IMG/VR virus record: IMGVR_UViG_3300045837_000213
Location: 1-64,000 of that record
Reading direction: 5' to 3' (one strand)
DNA length: 64,000 nucleotides
DNA from: a virus
Lineage: Duplodnaviria > Caudoviricetes
Shown one piece after another: positions 5,803 to 46,352 of the stretch. Under the pieces are notes generated by a model. It saw nothing but the letters and a program-made list of their open reading frames with translations, ran no database searches and was not told where the DNA came from. The position numbers and the translations under genes were made by a program. Each line of letters begins with the position of its first letter. The first letter of the stretch is position 1.

Positions 5803-6186
5803 ATGCGCAAACTCACAGGGACGAACACGGCCAGGGCCGTGGCGAGGAATCTTACGCGCAAATGTCACGTCCGCCTCGCGCGGGCCGAAGGCGCGAGGGC
5901 TTTCTTCGCCGTCGGCTGCGACCGCGGGCACGAGCACACGGTAGAGATCGAGCGGCGCGGGGACGGACTCTACGGCCAGTGCTTCTTCGAGGGGACGGGC
6001 GAGGCGTGCCCCTCGGAGCTGCGGGGCCGCGTCTGCTACCACACGACCGCCGCGCTCTCGCTCTACCTGGCCCGCGAGCGGCAGGCCGGCGCCTCCGGCT
6101 CCGTCAGGCAGCGGTGCAGATACCGGAGCGAGTTCCGGCTCGTCGCGGGGAAGCTCGCCGAGTACGTGGGGCCTTTTCGGATTTGA
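5803..6186 (+). CDS. SWIM-type zinc-finger protein
   Basis: C...CPS....RVCYH motif preceded by HEHTVEI strand. Confidence 0.6.
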   Translation: MRKLTGTNTARAVARNLTRKCHVRLARAEGARAFFAVGCDRGHEHTVEIERRGDGLYGQCFFEGTGEACPSELRGRVCYHTTAALSLYLARERQAGASGSVRQRCRYRSEFRLVAGKLAEYVGPFRI

Positions 6187-6311
6187 AGGTCGCGCCGTCG
6201 TCACGGCGCGAATGATGCGCGAGAAGGGCGCGCTAGTACAGTTCGGGGTCGCTTTTTCGGCGAACACCACTTCGAGGACTCTGGGCGGGAGAGAAAGGGC
6301 TGTGGACTTCG

Positions 6312-6785
6312 ATGGATACACCGGAGGCGAATCGCGCCGCCGTCGACGGAAACACTCTGGCCGTCGCGCGCGCCCTCAAGCGGCTGGGCATGAAACAGTG
6401 CTCGGAGCGCCTCGTCCAGTACCAGTTCAAGCCCGGCGCTGCGAGGCACGACTGGTACGGCCTCTTCTGGCGCTGGTGGAGGGCGCTGTGGATAGCGCAC
6501 CGGGCCGGCGCGGAATTCCTCTTCGAGGACTTCTGCGCGCGGGTCTCCGCCGTGCGCGACGCCGAGGGGCTGCGCGCCACTTCGCTGGGCGAGCAGCTCG
6601 ACCGCTGCGAGTACCAACACTACCGCTTCGCGGCGGCGGCGGCGCGCTCGGCCCCGCGCGACGAGATCATCCGCCTCGGCGTGGAGGAGATCGTCGAGAA
6701 GCGGAAGCTCGTCTGGATGCTGACAGCCGAGGCGGCGCGCGAGGCGTCTCCGGCCTCGCGCGCCGGCTCGCGGGCCGCGGCGTGA
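6312..6785 (+). CDS. Hypothetical early phage protein
   Basis: Plausible protein-like composition in operon context. Confidence 0.55.
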   Translation: MDTPEANRAAVDGNTLAVARALKRLGMKQCSERLVQYQFKPGAARHDWYGLFWRWWRALWIAHRAGAEFLFEDFCARVSAVRDAEGLRATSLGEQLDRCEYQHYRFAAAAARSAPRDEIIRLGVEEIVEKRKLVWMLTAEAAREASPASRAGSRAAA

Positions 6786-39518: not shown

Positions 39519-42500
39519 TTACCCGGTGGCGGTCGAGGCGAGACCCGGCGAGCCGTCGAACATCTCGCAGACCTCGACGGTCAATGCGGAGGGGATCGTG
39601 CCGCCGCCCCCCGTGTTGAAGTCCTGCTGCTGCATGGCGCGCGTGTAGGTGAAGGAGCGCGCCTGCGTATGATCCACGCGCGCCTGGAGAGCGTCCTGCG
39701 CCTCGCCCGAAAGCTGACCGACGGTGGCCTGCGCCTGGTAGGGCCAGCGCACGGGCGAGACGTTGGCGACGAAGATCGGCTTCGAGAGGTCTCCGACGTA
39801 GAAGCGGATGACGCCGCTGGCGACCTCAATCGCGCACGGGGTACCTGCCACGGCGATGCGCTTCGATGAGTCGAAGGCGACTGAGCAGGGGCGCAGGTAG
39901 AGCACGCCCGACGCGACCACGGCGTCGAGAGAGCAGAAGGCCGGCGAGGGGACGAGAGCGGGGTAGCTCATCGTGAAGCTCGCGGGTGTGCCCGAGAGAG
40001 AGACAGGCGTGCCGTTCGGGATGAGCGCGATCTGAAAGCGCCCCTCCGTGGCGTTCACGACGTAGTAAGCGCCGCTCAGGGGTGAGGCGGAGTTGAAGAC
40101 CACCTGGTCGCCGTTCTGCCAGTAATGATCGGGCGCGACGATCTCATTCGTCGCCGTGTCGCGCCCGCACGCCACGGTCGCGCCCACAAGGCGGAACTGG
40201 AGCGGCGGGTAGTGCGTGCCGAGCGTGAAGTGGACTAACGAGTCGCCGTAGATGATCTGGCCGGCCTGGAAGTCGCACGTGTGCGTCGCGTCGCCCGCGG
40301 TCGAGAGCGTGCCGTCTTCCGCGACCGAGGCGATTGAGGACGTGCCGAAGAGGTACTGCCACGCGAGCGGTTCGGAGTAGCCCGTCTCGACGTAGTGCGT
40401 GCGAATCAGGGTCGCGCCGTTGAAGACGCGGACGCGATAGACCTCGGCGACGCCGCCCGGGCCGAGCGAGCCGCGCCGGCCCTTATCCCAGGAGGCCGTC
40501 AGAGGCGAGCCGTTCGACGCGTCGAGTCGCGTGAGCTTGAGGTTCGACGGCTGCGGCAGGAAGGCGTCGGCCTGGAACGTGTACGAGGTCGCGGGCACGG
40601 TCGCGATGTCCGCGCCGGCGGCGACGAACTTATGGTCGCGCGCGACGAGCGCCTCCGACGCGTCCACCGGCAGGAACTTGAGCGCGTCGTCCAGGACGAG
40701 CAGCCGCTCGCTCGACGAGTGCCCGCTCATCGCCGTCTGGTCTTGCGCGCGGTTGACGAGGTTCGAGAAGCGCCAGCGGTTCGCGTAGCCGCCCAGTTGC
40801 GTCGCCGTCTTGTATTGCAGGCGCTCCGACCCGACCATCAGGCGGCCCAAACCGGCCGCGATGTCCGCGTCAGTGAAGCTGGCCGTCGGCTGCACCGTCC
40901 CGTAGATGTCGGCGTCTATTGTCTCGCTCCCGGTGTTCGTCGCCGCCAACGTCGTGGCGCAGACGCCGACGCACGCGTAGCGCGTCAGGTCGCACTCCTT
41001 CCTGTAACCCGCGCCGCGGTCGACATTGACCGCGCAGCCGCGGAACGGGGCCTGCTCGTAAGAGGCGACGCCTACGTAGTAGCCCTCCTTGCCCGTCGCC
41101 GCGTCTTCCGCCGTGAGGTAGTCGGTCTCGGCGAACTGCCCGACGAGAGTCGGCGGGAAGAAGACGGCGGGCGGCGTCCACGTCGGGGGCAACAGGTTCA
41201 CGGGTTCGTGGTACTGCGCGCCGGCGACGAAGACGCCCTTGAAGGCGAGCGAGCCGGGCACGGGCCCCGTCCGCTCGGAGACTCTCACCGTGTAGGTCGT
41301 GTCGCCGTCGTCTAATTCGAGAACGGTCGCGGCGGTCGCGACGAGGTACTGGTGCGGCAGGTCGAATTCGACGGCGTAGCGCCCCTCCGTCCACGCGGTC
41401 TCGCCGAGGCGCCGGGCGACCGCCGCGACCTCGTCGGGCGAGAGCGCCATCAGCGTCGTCGCCTGCTGCGGCGTCTGCGAGGTCGTCTCGTCGCGCATCC
41501 ACGAGCGCGTGACGTTCATAAATTCCGCGTTCGGGTCGTAGGCCGTGAGGTCTATGCGGCGCGGCAGCTCCACGTCGTTGAGCTTGACGCTCGTTCGAAC
41601 CAGCTTCGGCGCGTCGTTCGACTGCGAGTCGCCGCCCGCCTTCTGCGCGCCGAAGCCGAGGTGGTCGGGCGGCACGTGGTAGCTGGCCGCGCCCCCGCGA
41701 AGCACGGCAGTCACCGCGCCGCCTATGTGCGCGAAGTCGAAGCCCCACCGAATCTGGAGCGTCTGCGCGGCGATCTGTTTCAGCGAGGCGGGCTGCGTGA
41801 CGGCCATGCCGCGCACGTAGAGAGAGGAGAGAGCCGAAAAGTCGTAGTCGGCGGTGAGCGCGCCCGAGCGCACGGCGAGGTCGTCGAGGACGGCCTGCGC
41901 CGTGATGATTGATTTCGAGCGCAGGACGGCGGTGAAGTTCGGCACCCTCTGATAGTTCGTGAGGTTGAAGCGCTCCAACACGAGGTAGCAGCGCCCCTTG
42001 TACGCGGGCGCGACCGGAAGCCCGGAGCCGTATTCGACGGGGAACTGTGTCTGCCAGTAGGCGTCAATTATGGGGTCGGGGAGTTGCGCCTCGTTGCCGG
42101 GGTAGAAGCGGAGTGCGGAGAACGCGCCGCCGACGACCGTGGCCGAGACCATGCCCGTCGTGTCGGGCGCGGGGACGATCGAGAAGTTGGCCGCCGGGTT
42201 GTCACGGTAAACCGGGTCGAGCGGCGAGGGCGGCGCGAGGTGGTTGATCGTGGGCGGCGTGACGGGCGTCGGGTTGACCGCGCCCGTCACGCCGGGCACG
42301 CTCACCGTCAGCTTGTCGAGGAGCAGCGTCGTCGAGGAGAGATTTGTGACCTTAATCGTGTTGAGCGCGCCGGAGGCGAGCGCGAACGGCGCGGAGAAGT
42401 AGCCGAGCGCATAGACGCCGCCCGTCGAGTTCAACGTCGTCGTGAAGGTCGAAGTGCCGGCCGCGCCCGACCAGTCGAACCTGACCGAGACCGCCGCCGC

Positions 42501-43124
42501 CGCCGAGTAGAAAAAGTTGAGGCGGTAAGCAGCGCCGTTGCCGACGACGCCGTTGAATTGCAGCGACGCGTTCAGCCCCATCGAGACGGCCTTGCCGCCC
42601 GACGCCGCGGCGTCCGTGATCGTGGTCGCGCCGCCCGCCGGGGTGTTCCCCACGTATTCGGCCTCGTATGAGCCGAAGGCTTCGGGGATGCCCAGTTGCG
42701 GGCGGATGTCGTAGATGAGGTCGGCGTCGGCGTAGAGCGCGAGCAGTTCGCACTCGGTGTCGGCGAACATGATGCCGATGTCGGCCTCGTAATTGTCGTT
42801 GATGATTTGGGTCGAGCGCGCGCCCTTGCCCGACCCTTGCGTCTCGGTCGTCGTCGTCTGGAATTTCCTGATGTCGCTTAAATAGACGACGTTTCCGGCG
42901 ATGCGAAACCCGTGCGCGCTCCCGTCGGGCTGCACGCCCCCATAAACCAGCGGGATCATCGAGCCGTATTCGCTATCCTGTATCTGAACAGAGCCGGAGA
43001 GTTGGCCGCGCTCCTGGGCTTTCGGCTTCGGCGTTAATAAATAATTTAATGTGAACTCCGCCGCTGAGGTTGCGGCTGCGACCGCAGCAACGAGGAGTAT
43101 ACTTCCTGAGATCGGATCGGCCAT
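39519..43124 (-). CDS. Tail tip/central fibre (host-specificity J-like) protein with carbohydrate-binding insert
   Basis: YGSMIPLVYG..RIAGNV, PAYKGRCYLV, PNFT motifs; YEAE CBM-like insert. Confidence 0.85.
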   Translation of the reverse strand: MADPISGSILLVAAVAAATSAAEFTLNYLLTPKPKAQERGQLSGSVQIQDSEYGSMIPLVYGGVQPDGSAHGFRIAGNVVYLSDIRKFQTTTTETQGSGKGARSTQIINDNYEADIGIMFADTECELLALYADADLIYDIRPQLGIPEAFGSYEAEYVGNTPAGGATTITDAAASGGKAVSMGLNASLQFNGVVGNGAAYRLNFFYSAAAAVSVRFDWSGAAGTSTFTTTLNSTGGVYALGYFSAPFALASGALNTIKVTNLSSTTLLLDKLTVSVPGVTGAVNPTPVTPPTINHLAPPSPLDPVYRDNPAANFSIVPAPDTTGMVSATVVGGAFSALRFYPGNEAQLPDPIIDAYWQTQFPVEYGSGLPVAPAYKGRCYLVLERFNLTNYQRVPNFTAVLRSKSIITAQAVLDDLAVRSGALTADYDFSALSSLYVRGMAVTQPASLKQIAAQTLQIRWGFDFAHIGGAVTAVLRGGAASYHVPPDHLGFGAQKAGGDSQSNDAPKLVRTSVKLNDVELPRRIDLTAYDPNAEFMNVTRSWMRDETTSQTPQQATTLMALSPDEVAAVARRLGETAWTEGRYAVEFDLPHQYLVATAATVLELDDGDTTYTVRVSERTGPVPGSLAFKGVFVAGAQYHEPVNLLPPTWTPPAVFFPPTLVGQFAETDYLTAEDAATGKEGYYVGVASYEQAPFRGCAVNVDRGAGYRKECDLTRYACVGVCATTLAATNTGSETIDADIYGTVQPTASFTDADIAAGLGRLMVGSERLQYKTATQLGGYANRWRFSNLVNRAQDQTAMSGHSSSERLLVLDDALKFLPVDASEALVARDHKFVAAGADIATVPATSYTFQADAFLPQPSNLKLTRLDASNGSPLTASWDKGRRGSLGPGGVAEVYRVRVFNGATLIRTHYVETGYSEPLAWQYLFGTSSIASVAEDGTLSTAGDATHTCDFQAGQIIYGDSLVHFTLGTHYPPLQFRLVGATVACGRDTATNEIVAPDHYWQNGDQVVFNSASPLSGAYYVVNATEGRFQIALIPNGTPVSLSGTPASFTMSYPALVPSPAFCSLDAVVASGVLYLRPCSVAFDSSKRIAVAGTPCAIEVASGVIRFYVGDLSKPIFVANVSPVRWPYQAQATVGQLSGEAQDALQARVDHTQARSFTYTRAMQQQDFNTGGGGTIPSALTVEVCEMFDGSPGLASTATG

Positions 43125-43334
43125 TTTGTGAGAAAAAGAAAAATGCCAGTGGGCAGACGTAGAGGTCTGCCCCCGCTGGCATTTTCGAGGTTCCGTTTTT
43201 TCCTTGATTATAGGTCGCGGTTCGCCGTCGCGGCCCGATCAGGAGTGACGCGCGTTGCGCGCGCTGTTAATACCATGCATTATAGCCGCGCCACTTGTCA
43301 ATTTGTTTCTCACGAATGGTAAAGGAGGCGAAAA

Positions 43335-43787
43335 ATGACGCGAATTTTTGCGATGGCCCTACTTTTCTCAGCCTTCGCCCTGGCGCATGGCGCTCCGCAA
43401 GTCGCCGACAGGCCAGCAGGTAAGGCCACGGTCTATTTTTACAGGCTCAAGGAGTCGGGGCCCTACATCAAGACCAAGACGAGTGTTTACTGCGACGATG
43501 AAAAGCTGGCGGAGATAGGGAACGAGAGATATTTCGCCGCCATGCTCGAACCCGGCATTCACACGTTCAGGTCAACAGATAAGCAGAGCGGCATCGAGAA
43601 AGAATTGAAGGCTGGCGAGGTCTATTATGTGAGAATCGAAATGAATTTGACCCGGATTAAATTATTCCGCAAGCCACCTTTCAGGGTGGCGACCGTCGAG
43701 CCTGAGCAGGGTAAGTATGAGGTAAAGCGATTGAAGCCCATAAGTGAAGGTGATGTTAAGAACCATGAGAAGGTGACATTGCGGTAA
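43335..43787 (+). CDS. Secreted DUF2846-like protein (moron)
   Basis: Signal peptide; KATVYFYR, LEPGIH, LKAGEVYYVR. Confidence 0.75.
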   Translation: MTRIFAMALLFSAFALAHGAPQVADRPAGKATVYFYRLKESGPYIKTKTSVYCDDEKLAEIGNERYFAAMLEPGIHTFRSTDKQSGIEKELKAGEVYYVRIEMNLTRIKLFRKPPFRVATVEPEQGKYEVKRLKPISEGDVKNHEKVTLR

Positions 43788-44027
43788 TTACAATTTAGGC
43801 TCGCGCTCGTGGACGTATCTCTCAAGGCAAGTGTAGCCGTCCGCTTTGGCTTGTGCGGCGTAGCCCCTGAGCCTGGCGATGATCTGCTCCGGCGTGCCCC
43901 GCGTCGTGTCATTCAAGATCGCCGCCGCCGAGAGCACGTCACCCCGCGTAAACTCGAACTCGTCTATGACGAGGAGTAAAGCGTCCTCCAACTCCGGCCT
44001 GCCCGTGTAGTAAAACCCCCCGCTCAC
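43788..44027 (-). CDS. Hypothetical protein
   Basis: Coupled to the upstream HTH gene. Confidence 0.5.
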   Translation of the reverse strand: MSGGFYYTGRPELEDALLLVIDEFEFTRGDVLSAAAILNDTTRGTPEQIIARLRGYAAQAKADGYTCLERYVHEREPKL

Positions 44028-44251
44028 TTCTTCCCGCCTTTCTTTGTTGATGGCCGCCCGCCCTTATCAGGCGTGAACTCTTGAAGGTCGCGGCGTGAGA
44101 TGAATTTCTTTCCCGCGATTTCAATGAATGGGAGTTTACCTTGTCTTACTAGATGGCTAATCGCCTGTTTGGTAGTGCCGCGCTCTTCCGCGGCCTGCGT
44201 GATTGTAAGGAGTTCTTCGGGGTCTATTTTCACCATATACCTATTATACAT
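44024..44251 (-). CDS. Excisionase-like HTH regulator
   Basis: LLTITQAAEERGTTKQAISHLVRQGKL; GGRP tail. Confidence 0.8.
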   Translation of the reverse strand: MYNRYMVKIDPEELLTITQAAEERGTTKQAISHLVRQGKLPFIEIAGKKFISRRDLQEFTPDKGGRPSTKKGGKK

Positions 44252-44345
44252 ACCTTTTGCCGGATGACAATATGTTATGCAAATTAAATATGCGGCTTGG
44301 CAATAAATCTCTTGCCTTCCGACAAAAGGTTATTTATAATCCTTT
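44252..44345. promoter_or_regulatory. Divergent AT-rich promoter region of the moron
   Basis: TTGCCT upstream of TATAAT on the + strand; GACAATATGTTATGCA site shared with the cI/cro region. Confidence 0.6.
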
Positions 44346-44498
44346 TGTCGCTAGACAAAAGGAAAGGCGGGCGAACATGGAAGACAAGAAAGAGCAGAAG
44401 CAGGAGACGCCGGAGGAGCGGGCCGAGCGGCAGGAGCTTAACCGGCGGATGTTCGAGTGGTTCTACGGCTACTGCGGCCAGATGGAGACGACGGTTCT

Positions 44499-44858
44499 AT
44501 GTTAAGGAAATTTCGTCCCATTACGCTCATCACCCCTTTACAGGCGGCCACGCTTCTCGGCGTTGACCGCGCGGAACTCTTCAGGCGTTCGGGAGTCGCG
44601 GCGCACCTGGCGAAGGTGCGCCAAGGGAAACGCTTCTCTTTCGTCCTCGAAGAAGTCGAGGCTCTCAGAAAGGAGTTACTTATGGATTACGTGATTCTAT
44701 TGGCCCGCGACCCAAGCTCGCTCGCCTCTCAGGTAAACGACCTTATCAAGCGCGGGTGGCAGCCTCAGGGCGGCGTCGCCGCGAGCGAAGTTCACGAGGA
44801 AGGGACGGCGGCAGCGACGCAGTGGGCGCAGGCGATGGTTAAGCCCCAGTCGGAGTAA
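44499..44858 (+). CDS. HTH protein paralogous to 6820-7080, fused to a DUF1737-like domain
   Basis: AHLAKVRQG...FVLEEVEA; VNDLIKRGWQPQGGV...AQAMVK. Confidence 0.65.
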   Translation: MLRKFRPITLITPLQAATLLGVDRAELFRRSGVAAHLAKVRQGKRFSFVLEEVEALRKELLMDYVILLARDPSSLASQVNDLIKRGWQPQGGVAASEVHEEGTAAATQWAQAMVKPQSE

Positions 44859-44889
44859 ACGAACATTCCTCAGGAAGGGAGAGGGATTC

Positions 44890-45303
44890 ATGGCACAACG
44901 GGAAAGCACGGACGATATGTATTCATTACTCAAGAGGCGTTTCGACTGCTCGGAGCGGGCCGCGCTCGTCAGGCGGAAATTCGAGGTGCTGACGGTCGGG
45001 CGCGTCTCTTACCTGATTCAGTCAATCGTCTCCGAGGAGCAGGACACCTTCAAAGAGAGGTTCAACCGCCCGATCACCTTCGAGCAGGCGAAGGAGTTGG
45101 CGTCGCGGCTCCTGACGGGCGACTTCGGCGGCGGCGACGGGCAGATTCACGCCCTCATCGAGCTAATCGTCGGGATCGCCTACGAGGAGGATCACGTCGA
45201 GCGCGAACGGCTTGCGATGAGCGCTATCCGCGAGGCGTTCTTTTTCTCGGAGGCCCACGACGAAGCTTTGAACCAATTTTTCCATTGCGGGCCGAAGCAA
45301 TGA
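44890..45303 (+). CDS. Hypothetical helical protein
   Basis: GAGGG RBS; coupled to the HNH gene. Confidence 0.6.
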   Translation: MAQRESTDDMYSLLKRRFDCSERAALVRRKFEVLTVGRVSYLIQSIVSEEQDTFKERFNRPITFEQAKELASRLLTGDFGGGDGQIHALIELIVGIAYEEDHVERERLAMSAIREAFFFSEAHDEALNQFFHCGPKQ

Positions 45304-45605
45304 GGCGAAGATTGACTCAGGCGGAAAAGTTGCGACGGCTCTTCCAAAGGCGTCGTATGGCTACGGCCCGGCGGATGCTACGCCGGGCCGCGTCATACGG
45401 CGTAAGGGCCGAACATGTGACCCTCGACGAGATCATCGAGCGCGACGGAACGCGCTGCCACCTTTGCGGCTTAGAAACAGACGTGGACGATAGGACTCAC
45501 GACCACGTTGTGCCTCTCGTCAGGGGCGGGGAGCATACGACTATCAACTTACGCATCGCCCACAGGCGGTGTAATTCAATGAAGGGCGGTAAGAGTCACG
45601 CCTGA
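45300..45605 (+). CDS. HNH endonuclease
   Basis: RDGTRCHLCG...DHVVPLVRGG...NLRIAHRRCNSMKG. Confidence 0.92.
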   Translation: MRRRLTQAEKLRRLFQRRRMATARRMLRRAASYGVRAEHVTLDEIIERDGTRCHLCGLETDVDDRTHDHVVPLVRGGEHTTINLRIAHRRCNSMKGGKSHA

Positions 45606-45624
45606 TTCTAAAACGAGTTTTCTT

Positions 45625-45704
45625 GGGCGGGCATGGCTCGGTGAGGTAGGGCAACGCATGGAACGGTTTGGCCCGGCGCAGTATGGCCTGGCAAGGCATG
45701 GTTC
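45625..45704 (+). ncRNA. GGY-NN pentamer array 1 (candidate guide RNA)
   Basis: gggcg ggcat ggctc ggtga ggtag ggcaa cgcat ggaac ggttt ggccc ggcgc agtat ggcct ggcaa ggcat ggttc; intergenic. Confidence 0.85.
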
Positions 45705-45725
45705 AAACGCAAAAGGAGCATGAGA

Positions 45726-46349
45726 ATGTCAAACATCGTCAAGGCGAAAATCACGATCAGGGGTATGCGTCCGCTCTTACAACATCATTTCGGGCCGGAC
45801 GCGTTGCCTTTGGAAAAGCAGGAGAAAGACGGCGTGGCGGGGAACTCGCCCAACGAGTGGCGGAAGACGGCGATGGTCACTAAAGACGGCCAGCTTTACC
45901 TTGAGCCGACCTACGCCTTTGCCACAATCCGCGACGCGGCGAAGTACACGAAAAAGGGGAGAGGCTCACTCCAAACCGCCGTCGCCGCCACCCTTCAAGT
46001 GCTGGACGACAGGATTTTGATTGATAGGTTTTTTCCGGGCTTCCCGAACGGACATGCCTTCGACATCCAGAAGGTCGAGCCGCCTTCGCTCGACAGGGAG
46101 CTTCCGGTTTACCTCGACGTGCAGTCTGTGAGGAATCCGACCACCAAAGCCCGCAACGTCAGGTACAGGGTGGCCGCATCCTCCGGCTGGTCGTGTTCGT
46201 TTACGATCATGTTCGACAAGACAGTCGTTGACCGTAACCAGATGCAAGCTGTCCTTAATGACGCCGGCACTCTCGTCGGTATTGCCGACGGCAGAAGCGT
46301 TGGGTTTGGCAGGTTTTCCGTTGAAGCTTTCGACTTCTTAGAGTCTTAA
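45726..46349 (+). CDS. Stand-alone Cas7/RAMP-like protein (Vipr-like effector)
   Basis: First strand ITIRGMRPLLQH, YLEP...TIRDAA helix, RNVRYR, W.CSFTI, C-terminal G-loop GIADGRSVGFGRF; AAGGAG RBS; no other cas gene adjacent. Confidence 0.82.
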   Translation: MSNIVKAKITIRGMRPLLQHHFGPDALPLEKQEKDGVAGNSPNEWRKTAMVTKDGQLYLEPTYAFATIRDAAKYTKKGRGSLQTAVAATLQVLDDRILIDRFFPGFPNGHAFDIQKVEPPSLDRELPVYLDVQSVRNPTTKARNVRYRVAASSGWSCSFTIMFDKTVVDRNQMQAVLNDAGTLVGIADGRSVGFGRFSVEAFDFLES

Positions 46350-46352
46350 CGC

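What the first reader, a model, noticed from the sequence alone, without database searches (positions are those of the whole stretch)
45625..45704. Array 1 decodes as a gapped NN.x code to the tail-tip gene (42868-42908), skipping wobble bases
Seen: the NN string is cg at tc ga ag aa at ac tt cc gc at ct aa. The + strand at 42868-42908, read two bases and skip one, is ct at tc ct aa ta ac ac tt cc gc at cg aa. That is 8 of 14 exact. The skipped base is always the third codon position of the - strand gene. The guide is compatible with peptide FRIAGNVIFLSDIR and the resident gene encodes FRIAGNVVYLSDIR. Four of six mismatches can be synonymous six-codon swaps (Arg CGN/AGG, Ser TCN/AGC, Leu CTN/TTA, Arg AGR/CGC), and two are conservative (I/V, F/Y). 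A rough binomial with uniform bases gives a few percent chance of such a hit in 128 kb of both strands, before counting frame and synonymy. Inference: the guide targets this conserved motif in related phages, and skipping the wobble base makes it resistant to ordinary silent escape.
Basis: partly seen in the sequence, partly recalled or inferred. Interest (0 to 1): 0.95.

Follow-up and report, generated by a model that had tools for sequence, protein, structure and literature searches.

The report
VIPR guide RNA aimed at sister phages
The five-base repeat tract is a guide RNA of a VIPR system (a phage-borne, CRISPR-like RNA-guided DNA binder first described in 2026 preprints), and its variable letters spell out, two bases per codon, a tail gene as carried by rival sister phages, while the phage's own copy has been silently recoded to avoid being hit.

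Summary
Array 1 (45625-45704) is 16 units of GGYNN. It is one of four same-strand arrays around a 207-aa Cas7/Csm3-fold protein (45726-46349) and a 98-aa HNH protein (46578-46874).

Read as NN-skip-NN, array 1 matches 42868-42908 at 8/14 dinucleotides and 21/28 bases. That is the best site in the window, and the skipped base is always the wobble base of the minus-strand tail-tip gene. As plain base identity this is borderline (shuffle P 0.005 to 0.13). Scored as codons it is far above chance (64 against a shuffle maximum of 45).

Four relatives of the phage that lack the 3.9-kb cassette match the guide better than the resident does: 21-22 of 24 bases against 18 of 24. The resident carries TTA, AGC and AGG where all relatives carry CTC, TCS and CGC. 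Arrays 3 and 4 behave the same way on the tape-measure and NlpC/P60 genes. Array 2 matches the G-loop codons of a rival effector gene 20/20.

The system is not new as a kind. It is VIPR, described in three bioRxiv preprints in 2026, with the same one-nucleotide skip rule. What may go beyond those papers is the layout: an HNH partner, targets on both flanks of the insertion site, and self-immunity by codon-family swaps. This looks like homing.

The parts
45625..45704 (+). vrRNA array 1: 16 GGYNN units. It lies between HNH1 and the effector gene and ends 15 nt before the ribosome-binding site. This is the guide for the tail-tip gene allele of sister phages.
45726..46349 (+). vipr: a 207-aa single-domain RAMP with a Cas7/Csm3 fold and a C-terminal glycine-rich loop. 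An in-frame ATG at 45720 is possible, but homologues start at 45726.
   Evidence: the top 40 PDB matches are all Csm3 or type VII Cas7, E 3e-8; tblastn hits in Felixounaviruses, including phiSUSP1
46353..46418 (+). vrRNA array 2: 13 units with one extra base after unit 8. This is the guide for the G-loop codons of rival vipr genes.
   Evidence: 20/20 on L003, 19/20 on four loci, resident 16/20
46431..46478 (+). Relic of a duplicated vipr 3' end, lying between arrays 2 and 3. It translates to CFGRSTVEGFEFIDS*, which resembles the intact C-terminus.
46489..46575 (+). vrRNA array 3: about 17 units with two one-base slips. It runs into the ribosome-binding site of the HNH gene. This is the guide for the tape-measure gene allele of sister phages.
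46578..46874 (+). vap: a 98-aa HNH protein, the conserved partner of vipr. The Asp-His, Asn and His core is kept. Two of the four family-conserved Cys are replaced here (Gly31, His65).
   Evidence: (directly downstream of vipr in 101 of 118 loci)
46889..46953 (+). vrRNA array 4: 13 units. Units 1-10 are the guide for the NlpC/P60 tail gene allele of sister phages.
46954..46984 (+). GC-rich hairpin followed by a T-run, the likely end of the operon transcript.
   Evidence: Read from the sequence. The simple terminator scan did not list it.
42867..42914 (-). Resident counterpart of the array 1 target. It covers codons 71-86 of the 1201-aa tail-tip (Phage-tail_3) gene and is recoded with TTA, AGC and AGG.
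50170..50220 (-). Resident counterpart of the array 3 target. It covers codons 971-987 of the tape-measure gene, where the four Leu codons are TTG, TTG, TTG and TTA.
47354..47392 (-). Resident counterpart of the array 4 target. It covers codons 49-61 of the NlpC/P60-like tail gene and has diverged by amino-acid changes.
46287..46316 (+). Resident counterpart of the array 2 target, the G-loop codons of the resident vipr gene. Its Ser and second Arg codons are in the AGN family.
43125..47068 (.). A 3.9-kb lower-GC cassette inserted between the tail-tip gene start and the NlpC/P60 gene stop. Four relatives lack it. The 10-bp direct repeat AAAATGCCAG sits at 43140 and 47038.
45285..45605 (+). HNH1, a second ordinary phage-type HNH gene upstream of array 1. 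It is not part of the conserved module: no homologue was found next to vipr in the first 118 related loci (L001-L118).

Best explanation
Array 1 is a guide RNA (vrRNA) of a VIPR system carried by a 93-kb soil phage.

**How it works (from the published structures).** The Cas7-like Vipr protein polymerises along the transcript, one protomer per pentamer. It buries each GGY and presents the two variable bases. These pair with double-stranded DNA in which every third base is skipped. I did not test this mechanism on this locus.

**What the sequences show here.**
- The four arrays of this cassette read, two bases per codon, conserved stretches of the tail-tip, tape-measure and NlpC/P60 genes. They match the versions of these genes found in sister phages that lack the cassette.
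- One array reads the G-loop of rival vipr genes.
- The resident copies of all four sites match worse, because Leu, Ser and Arg codons have been moved to the other codon family or residues have changed. The phage therefore spares itself.

**Inferred.** During co-infection, or against a resident prophage, the complex binds the rival's genes and blocks or, through the HNH partner, cuts them.
For: **Anatomy.**
- There are four same-strand GGYNN arrays, with unit profile G .94, G .93, C/T .85, N, N over 1828 units.
- They surround a protein with a Cas7/Csm3 fold and an HNH gene that follows it in 101 of 118 related loci.
- Arrays are present on the same strand in most loci, across Acidobacteriota, Bacillota, Cyanobacteria, Chlamydiota and others.

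**Code.**
- Period 3 is the only target period with excess own-locus matches, and the excess is specific to the array's own locus.
- At codon level, 22% of arrays have p<0.05 on their own locus, against 3% on foreign loci.
- Both orientations occur.

**This window.**
- Arrays 1, 2 and 3 score 64, 53 and 55 against a shuffle maximum of 45.
- Against relative L120, arrays 1, 3 and 4 reach 22, 21 and 20 of 24 bases, with z of 8.1, 6.7 and 6.0. Against the phage's own 93-kb genome they reach only 17-18 of 24.
- Array 2 matches the L003 vipr gene 20/20.

**Recoding.** The resident has TTA/AGC/AGG where the relatives have CTC/TCS/CGC. In this genome TTR is 10.7% of Leu codons, AGR 14% of Arg and AGY 24% of Ser.

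**Insertion.** In all four relatives the NlpC/P60 gene abuts the tail-tip gene.

**Literature.** bioRxiv 10.64898/2026.04.26.720920.720927 and 10.64898/2026.10.15.759431 describe this system, the code, targets on either strand and guides against rivals' vipr genes. The window's protein has tblastn matches in Felixounaviruses, including phiSUSP1, the founding example.
Against: - **No expression or binding data.** There are none for this locus, and no RNA run holding the region was listed.
- **No perfect match yet.** The relatives found match array 1 at 78% over all 16 units and 86% over the 14-unit core. No perfectly matching allele has been seen. An exact 10-unit pattern scan of IMG/VR found nothing.
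- **No near-perfect targets among related loci.** A pooled search of 1.1 Mb of related loci found none.
- **Few, related comparators.** Only four relatives were available, and they are related to one another.
- **No conserved 3' tail.** The published type II vrRNAs have one; none is evident after the window's arrays.
- **No ribozyme here.** Several related loci have a hammerhead ribozyme next to their arrays, but the window has none.
- **Altered HNH protein.** The window's HNH protein lacks two of the four conserved Cys, so nuclease activity is uncertain.
Confidence: 0.87

Rival explanations
1. RNA-guided homing or marker exclusion. The HNH partner cuts the cassette-less allele at or near the guide sites on both sides of the insertion point. 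Repair from the cassette-bearing genome then copies in the cassette together with its recoded, immune flanks. This refines the best explanation rather than excluding it.
For: - The cassette is absent from four relatives at a precise intergenic junction.
- Guide sites lie about 0.2-0.3 kb from each edge, in the tail-tip gene and the NlpC/P60 gene, with a third about 3 kb away.
- The resident alleles are recoded.
- An HNH gene is the conserved partner.
- In other loci the sub-threshold own-locus matches also tend to lie in genes next to the cassette, for example L091, L074, L075, L081 and L102.
Against: - No cleavage has been shown for any VIPR in the papers I read. The published activity is transcriptional silencing.
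- The window's HNH has lost two conserved Cys.
- Tight linkage of guides and immune alleles would also be favoured without any cutting.
- The enrichment by distance from the array is modest.
Confidence: 0.35
2. Silencing only. The complex binds rival tail genes and blocks their transcription, as shown for type II VIPR. The HNH protein has some other role or none.
For: - Repression has been shown experimentally for the SUSP1 and P. fulva systems, on either strand and without a PAM.
- The window's HNH has an altered zinc site.
Against: - The HNH gene is kept next to vipr in 101 of 118 loci, with Asp-His, Asn and His conserved at 95% or more.
- The preprint itself proposes target destruction for the nuclease-bearing types.
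Confidence: 0.4
3. Self-regulation. The arrays bind the phage's own tail genes through the partial matches and tune their expression.
For: - The best matches in the resident genome are in its own tail genes.
- In L091 and L075 the array aligns with the first codons of a neighbouring gene.
Against: - Resident matches are 54-75%, below the 80% level at which natural targets were called. Relatives match better.
- The resident differences are rare codons placed exactly at guide-read positions, which points to selection away from pairing.
Confidence: 0.06
4. Chance resemblance. The arrays are protein-binding or structural repeats, and the NN letters carry no information.
For: - As plain dinucleotide identity in the window alone, the array 1 match is borderline (P 0.07 to 0.135).
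- Arrays 2 and 4 show nothing in the window by that measure.
Against: - Codon-level scores are far above all shuffles.
- Relatives give z of 6 to 8.
- Array 2 matches a rival vipr gene 20/20.
- The signal is specific to period 3 and to the array's own locus across 95 arrays.
Confidence: 0.02

Closest known systems
VIPR (Viral Interference Programmable Repeat) systems: Vipr, Vap and vrRNA. Sources: bioRxiv 10.64898/2026.04.26.720920, 10.64898/2026.04.26.720927 and 10.64898/2026.10.15.759431.
   Same: - It has a small RAMP protein, an adjacent accessory gene, and arrays of GGY/NN pentamers flanking the genes.
- Targets follow the one-nucleotide skip rule and are aligned on wobble positions, on either strand.
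- Targets lie in competing phages and in rivals' vipr genes.
- The phage's own genome stays below the 80% NN match level.
   Different: - The characterised examples (SUSP1, P. fulva; type II) have DNA-binding Vaps, a conserved 3' tail with a pseudoknot, and aim at satellites or lysogeny regulators.
- Here the partner is a 98-aa HNH protein and no common tail is seen.
- The cassette sits inside a tail operon, and three guides aim at the tail genes that flank it in cassette-less sister phages.
- The sub-type (probably a nuclease-bearing type, III or V) could not be assigned from the text I could access.
Class 1 CRISPR effector backbones (Cas7 / Csm3 filaments on crRNA)
   Same: - The protein fold matches (Foldseek E 3e-8 to Csm3 and type VII Cas7).
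- One protomer binds per fixed number of guide bases.
- Pairing is periodically interrupted.
   Different: - There is no CRISPR repeat-spacer array and there are no other cas genes.
- The period is 5 nt with only 2 informative bases, and the target period is 3. In class 1 CRISPR it is 5 paired plus 1 flipped on both strands.
Free-standing HNH/GIY-YIG homing endonucleases of phages (T4 Seg and Mob proteins; marker exclusion). This comparison is from general knowledge and was not checked in a paper here.
   Same: - A nuclease gene is inserted between conserved genes and is absent from close relatives.
- The recognition sites lie in conserved coding sequence a few hundred bp from the insertion.
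- The resident allele is protected by substitutions.
   Different: - Recognition would be by RNA guides, not by the protein.
- Several sites on both flanks are addressed.
- Cleavage and co-conversion have not been shown.
TRAP (trp RNA-binding attenuation protein) sites: G/UAG triplets with 2-3 nt spacers. This comparison is from general knowledge.
   Same: An RNA tract with a conserved triplet every five bases, bound by a protein oligomer.
   Different: - In TRAP sites the spacers carry no information and the protein is a ring that regulates in cis.
- Here the spacers are the message.

Membership tests
VIPR | Vipr protein: a small (about 20 kDa) single-RRM RAMP with a G-loop | tested here: met
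   - The protein is 207 aa, and the model has pLDDT 84.
- Every listed PDB match (about 30 rows shown of 140 with E <= 0.001) is from a type III (Csm/Cmr) or type VII effector complex.
- The Gly-rich C-terminal motif is invariant.
- tblastn finds hits at E 2e-5 to 4e-4 in Felixounaviruses, including phiSUSP1.
VIPR | vrRNA: tandem GGY/NN (YNNGG) pentamers, roughly 9-16 units, in the intergenic regions around vipr | tested here: met
   The four arrays have 16, 13, about 17 and 13 units. The unit profile across 141 arrays is.
VIPR | An adjacent vipr-accessory (vap) gene | tested here: met
   An HNH gene lies directly downstream in 101 of 118 loci. The preprint lists HNH among Vap domains.
VIPR | One-nucleotide skip rule, with the skipped base on the codon wobble position and targets on either strand | tested here: met
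   - Only period 3 gives a signal; periods 2 and 4 do not.
- The matches are in frame.
- Both sense and antisense cases occur.
VIPR | Natural targets at 80% NN match or more lie in other mobile elements, and none in the element's own genome | tested here: met
   - Relatives score 86-92% over the 12-14 unit core for array 1, 88% for array 3 and 95% over 10 units for array 4.
- A rival vipr gene scores 100% over 10 units.
- The phage's own genome scores 75% or less.
- Over all 16 units of array 1 the relatives reach 78%.
VIPR | vrRNAs are expressed, processed to about 100 nt and co-purify with Vipr; the RNP binds dsDNA | not testable with these tools
   This is a soil metagenome phage, and no RNA run was listed.
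VIPR | A conserved 3' tail or other processing signal after the repeat tract | tested here: inconclusive
   - No shared tail follows the four window arrays.
- Type II hammerhead cores bracket the arrays in 22 related loci, but not in the window.
CRISPR-Cas type III / class 1 | A CRISPR array of 25-40 nt repeats with spacers, plus Cas10/Cas5/Cas6 or other cas genes | tested here: not met
   - The tandem-repeat and Rfam scans show no CRISPR array.
- The neighbouring genes are HNH, DUF1737, DUF2846 and tail genes.
- PADLOC gives only a weak Csm4 match, E 0.028.
Free-standing homing endonuclease cassette | A nuclease gene inserted between conserved genes and absent from close relatives | tested here: met
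Free-standing homing endonuclease cassette | Cleavage of the cassette-less allele near the insertion site, followed by co-conversion | not testable with these tools
   Only predicted binding sites 0.2-0.3 kb from each edge are available.
Hammerhead ribozyme (type II), in related loci only | The CUGANGA and GAAA cores, a cleavage-site UH, stems I and III closed and stem II open | tested here: inconclusive
   - My pattern-and-pairing scan finds 22 sources with cores, including U3/A8 covariants.
- Rfam models did not report them at gathering or E-value thresholds.

The most novel reading that the evidence does not exclude
This HNH-bearing VIPR cassette is an RNA-guided homing element.
- Its guides address conserved codons on both sides of its own insertion site in cassette-less sister phages.
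- The HNH partner breaks that DNA.
- Repair copies in the cassette along with flanks that are immune, because their Leu, Ser and Arg codons were switched to the other codon family. That switch is the only silent escape a wobble-skipping reader allows.

If this holds generally, the sub-threshold 'ghost' matches to neighbouring resident genes seen in about a fifth of arrays would be the footprint of such drives.
Probability: 0.35. Interest if true: 0.8.

Novelty: new member of a known kind. Interest (0 to 1): 0.55.

Why it matters
The finding shows that the VIPR code can be read from raw sequence and checked by comparison alone. The guide, the rival allele it fits, and the recoded resident allele are all visible in public data.

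For VIPR biology it adds a natural case in an uncultured soil phage. Here the guides aim at essential tail genes of sister phages rather than at satellites or regulators. The partner is an HNH protein. Self-immunity is written as rare TTA, AGC and AGG codons.

If the homing reading is right, it would be a programmable selfish nuclease. It would also be a natural example of linked guide and immunity alleles spreading together.

Tried and rejected
- **My first reading was chance (about 85%).** I dropped it after the codon-level and relative-allele tests.
- **Rfam found nothing relevant.**
  - At gathering thresholds it found no RNA family in the window and only a tRNA in 14 related loci.
  - At E-value threshold on L074 it found no hammerhead.
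- **Protein family libraries did not name the effector.** Pfam, NCBIfam and PADLOC have no family for it. PHROGs has only phrog_4652, of unknown function.
- **The first two literature searches missed the VIPR papers.** These used pentanucleotide repeats, and Cas7-like plus HNH.
- **Pattern and protein scans of IMG/VR.**
  - An exact scan for a 10-unit perfect target of array 1 found 0 hits.
  - A protein-based scan for tail-tip relatives found none. The relatives came from the protein database instead.
- **The pooled NN.x search of 1.1 Mb of related loci** found no match above decoy level, apart from array 2 on vipr genes.
- **I considered that the arrays might be translated,** because the similarity is at peptide level. 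I rejected this because both orientations occur.
  - Under purifying selection, first-position Leu/Arg swaps are the only single-base silent changes available at codon positions 1-2.
- **I considered G:U tolerance as the cause of the mismatches.** The mismatch types do not fit.
- **Sequencing runs:** no RNA holder was listed.
- **The simple terminator scan** did not list the hairpin after array 4.
- **The VIPR sub-type** could not be assigned, because the preprint's type tables are not held.

Full report
**What is at the coordinates**

The stretch 45625-45704 is 16 five-base units on the + strand. Fourteen begin GG, the third base is C or T in most, and the last two bases vary. Three more arrays lie on the same strand: 46353-46418, 46489-46575 and 46889-46953. 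The operon contains these parts:
- an ordinary HNH gene (45285-45605);
- a 207-aa gene (45726-46349);
- a 98-aa HNH gene (46578-46874);
- a hairpin with a T-run at its end.

The whole + strand block from 43125 to 47068 has lower GC. It sits between two minus-strand tail genes: an NlpC/P60-like gene (47069-47536) and a 1201-aa Phage-tail_3 tail-tip gene (39519-43124). The window is the first 64 kb of a 93,431-base virus record from soil.

**Checking the observation**

The match is 8 of 14 dinucleotides and 21 of 28 bases. It is the only site in the window with 7 or more exact dinucleotides.

The site is in frame with the minus-strand gene, at codons 71-86. The skipped base is the wobble base.

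As raw identity the match is borderline. Unit-order shuffles give P = 0.005 for bases and 0.07 for dinucleotides, and a local score gives 0.135. At that point I rated it as probably chance.

**What changed my reading**

The 207-aa protein has over 1300 relatives at 60-84% identity and belongs to no Pfam family. I fetched 118 related loci.
- The small HNH gene follows the 207-aa gene directly in 101 of them.
- Same-strand GGYNN arrays are present in most.
- The unit profile over 1828 units is G .94, G .93, C/T .85, N, N.
- The protein model (pLDDT 84) matches only Csm3 and type VII Cas7 chains in the PDB.

I then tested the gapped code on 95 arrays against their own 10-kb loci.
- With a target period of 3, 20% had p<0.05. 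With periods 2 and 4 the figure was 2%, and against GC-matched foreign loci it was 4%.
- Real strings beat reversed and swapped decoys 47 to 20.
- Scored as codons the signal sharpened. 22% had p<0.05, and 10 arrays exceeded all 200 shuffles, against 3% on foreign loci.

Examples: in L091 the whole array aligns with codons 3-20 of the tape-measure gene that follows it, scoring 68 against a maximum of 45. In L075 the array aligns from the start codon of a convergent gene, scoring 66 against 47.

In the window the codon-level scores are as follows:

| Array | Orientation | Resident site | Score | Shuffle maximum |
|---|---|---|---|---|
| 1 | antisense | tail-tip gene | 64 | 45 |
| 2 | sense | own G-loop, 46287-46325 | 53 | 45 |
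| 3 | antisense | tape-measure gene, 50170-50220 | 55 | 45 |
| 4 | - | none found | - | - |

Both orientations occur. This argues for recognition of double-stranded DNA, not of mRNA, and against any translation of the arrays.

**The decisive comparison**

The tail-tip protein has seven relatives in the protein database. I fetched DNA for four of them, at 55-77% identity. In all four the NlpC/P60-like gene abuts the tail-tip gene, so the 3.9-kb block is an insertion.

- **Array 1.** At the homologous codons the relatives match 25/32, against 22/32 for the resident.
  - Over the eight units at the 3' end of the target, the relatives score 15, 13, 14 and 14 of 16, against 10 of 16.
  - Over 12-unit windows they score 22/24 and 21/24 (three times), against 18/24. 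For L120, z = 8.1 against 1000 shuffles.
- **Array 3.** It reaches 21/24 on the L120 tape-measure gene (z = 6.7).
- **Array 4.** It has no site in the resident genome. It reaches 20/24 on the NlpC/P60 gene of L120 and L121, and 19/20 over ten units (z = 6.0).
- **Array 2.** Its first ten units match the G-loop codons of the L003 effector gene 20/20 and four other loci 19/20, against 16/20 for the resident.

**How the resident escapes**

In the array 1 site the resident has TTA, AGC and AGG where all four relatives have CTC, TCC/TCG and CGC. In this genome TTA is 2.6% of Leu codons, TTA plus TTG 10.7%, AGA plus AGG 14% of Arg, and AGC plus AGT 24% of Ser.

In the array 3 site the four Leu codons are TTG, TTG, TTG and TTA, where L120 has CTC, CTG, CTC and CTC. 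In the array 4 site the resident differs by amino-acid changes.

A reader that ignores wobble bases can be evaded silently only through the six-fold codon families. That is where the resident differs.

**What it is**

A literature search then found that the system is already described. It is VIPR, Viral Interference Programmable Repeat.
- **bioRxiv 10.64898/2026.04.26.720920** reports:
  - a small ancestral RAMP (Vipr), an accessory gene (vap), and vrRNAs of 9-16 GGY/NN pentamers;
  - a one-nucleotide skip rule, shown by pangenome search, in vitro binding and reporter repression;
  - wobble alignment, targets on both strands, and no PAM;
  - natural targets in competing phages, satellites and other VIPRs;
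  - seven types, some with nucleases including HNH domains;
  - hammerhead-interspersed arrays;
  - no self-target at 80% NN match or more.
- **bioRxiv 10.64898/2026.04.26.720927** gives cryo-EM structures. A helical Vipr filament buries each GGY and presents NN. Every third DNA base is skipped, and an R-loop triplex forms.
- **bioRxiv 10.64898/2026.10.15.759431** shows the anti-satellite role. It also describes guides aimed at rivals' vipr genes that score lower against self.

The window's protein has tblastn matches in Felixounaviruses, including phiSUSP1, the founding example. Every defining feature I could test is met. Expression and binding cannot be tested here. The sub-type could not be assigned.

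**What may go beyond the papers**

None of the three texts mentions homing, a test of HNH cleavage, or six-fold codon swaps. In this window three of the four guides aim at genes flanking the cassette's own insertion site in cassette-less relatives. Two of these sites lie within about 0.3 kb of each edge. The partner is an HNH protein, and the resident flanks are recoded. This is the layout of a free-standing homing endonuclease, with RNA doing the recognition.

This reading is inference. Linkage of guides and immune alleles would also be favoured under silencing alone. In addition, the window's HNH has Gly and His in place of two of the four conserved Cys, although Asp-His, Asn and His are kept.

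**Verdict**

The kind of system is already published, as 2026 preprints. This locus is a new, HNH-type member with an instructive natural target set and a homing-like arrangement that can be tested.

Noticed in passing
L091 5982-6032; L074 5902-5950 and 6055-6102; L023 5921-5979; L028 6011-6062 and 6182-6234; 22 sources in all: Type II hammerhead-like cores sit just after the HNH gene and between arrays, on the array strand. The layout is GAAA, closed stem III, UH cleavage site, closed stem I, CUGANGA or the U3/A8 covariant, with stem II open. They occur mostly in Bacillota loci and are absent from the window. Rfam models did not report them. This fits the 'ribozyme-vrRNA arrays' of the preprint.
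   Followed up: partly
window 43140-43149 and 47038-47047 (inverted copy at 43176-43185): The 10-bp direct repeat AAAATGCCAG lies 15 bp and 21 bp inside the two edges of the 3.9-kb cassette. The left copy is one arm of a hairpin. It may be a trace of how the cassette was inserted.
   Followed up: partly
window 46431-46478: The spacer between arrays 2 and 3 translates to a 15-residue peptide plus stop that resembles the C-terminus of the effector. The 3' end of the gene and its array were therefore probably duplicated.
   Followed up: partly
window 46578-46874: The window's HNH partner has Gly31 and His65 where 95% or more of 80 distinct homologues have Cys. These are two of the four presumed zinc ligands. 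The Asp43-His44, Asn53 and His66 positions are kept.
   Followed up: partly
window 43035-43049 (codons 26, 29, 30 of the tail-tip gene): A second cluster of three rare TTA codons lies near the start of the tail-tip gene. It could be an escape footprint from a guide carried by some other phage. No array of this window matches it.
   Followed up: no
L091 6051-6140 with 6218-6271; L074 about 6120-6205 with 6299-6349; L075 5871-5955 with 6275-6325: In these loci the array aligns at about 70% with the first codons of the gene next to the cassette (tape measure, or a convergent small gene from its Met). Between L091 and L074 the arrays and genes have each diverged to 35-40% identity, but each array still fits its own neighbour. 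About a fifth of arrays show such sub-threshold matches to their own locus.
   Followed up: partly
L023 3544-4569; L041 6267-9857: The vipr-HNH module also occurs next to a tyrosine integrase in a Bacillus genome and next to a NACHT-HEAT gene in Anabaena. The family is therefore not confined to tail operons.
   Followed up: no
window 44243-44340: A back-to-back pair of strong sigma-70-like promoters (11/12 and 10/12 matches) lies between a minus-strand HTH gene and the + strand genes that lead into the VIPR operon.
   Followed up: no
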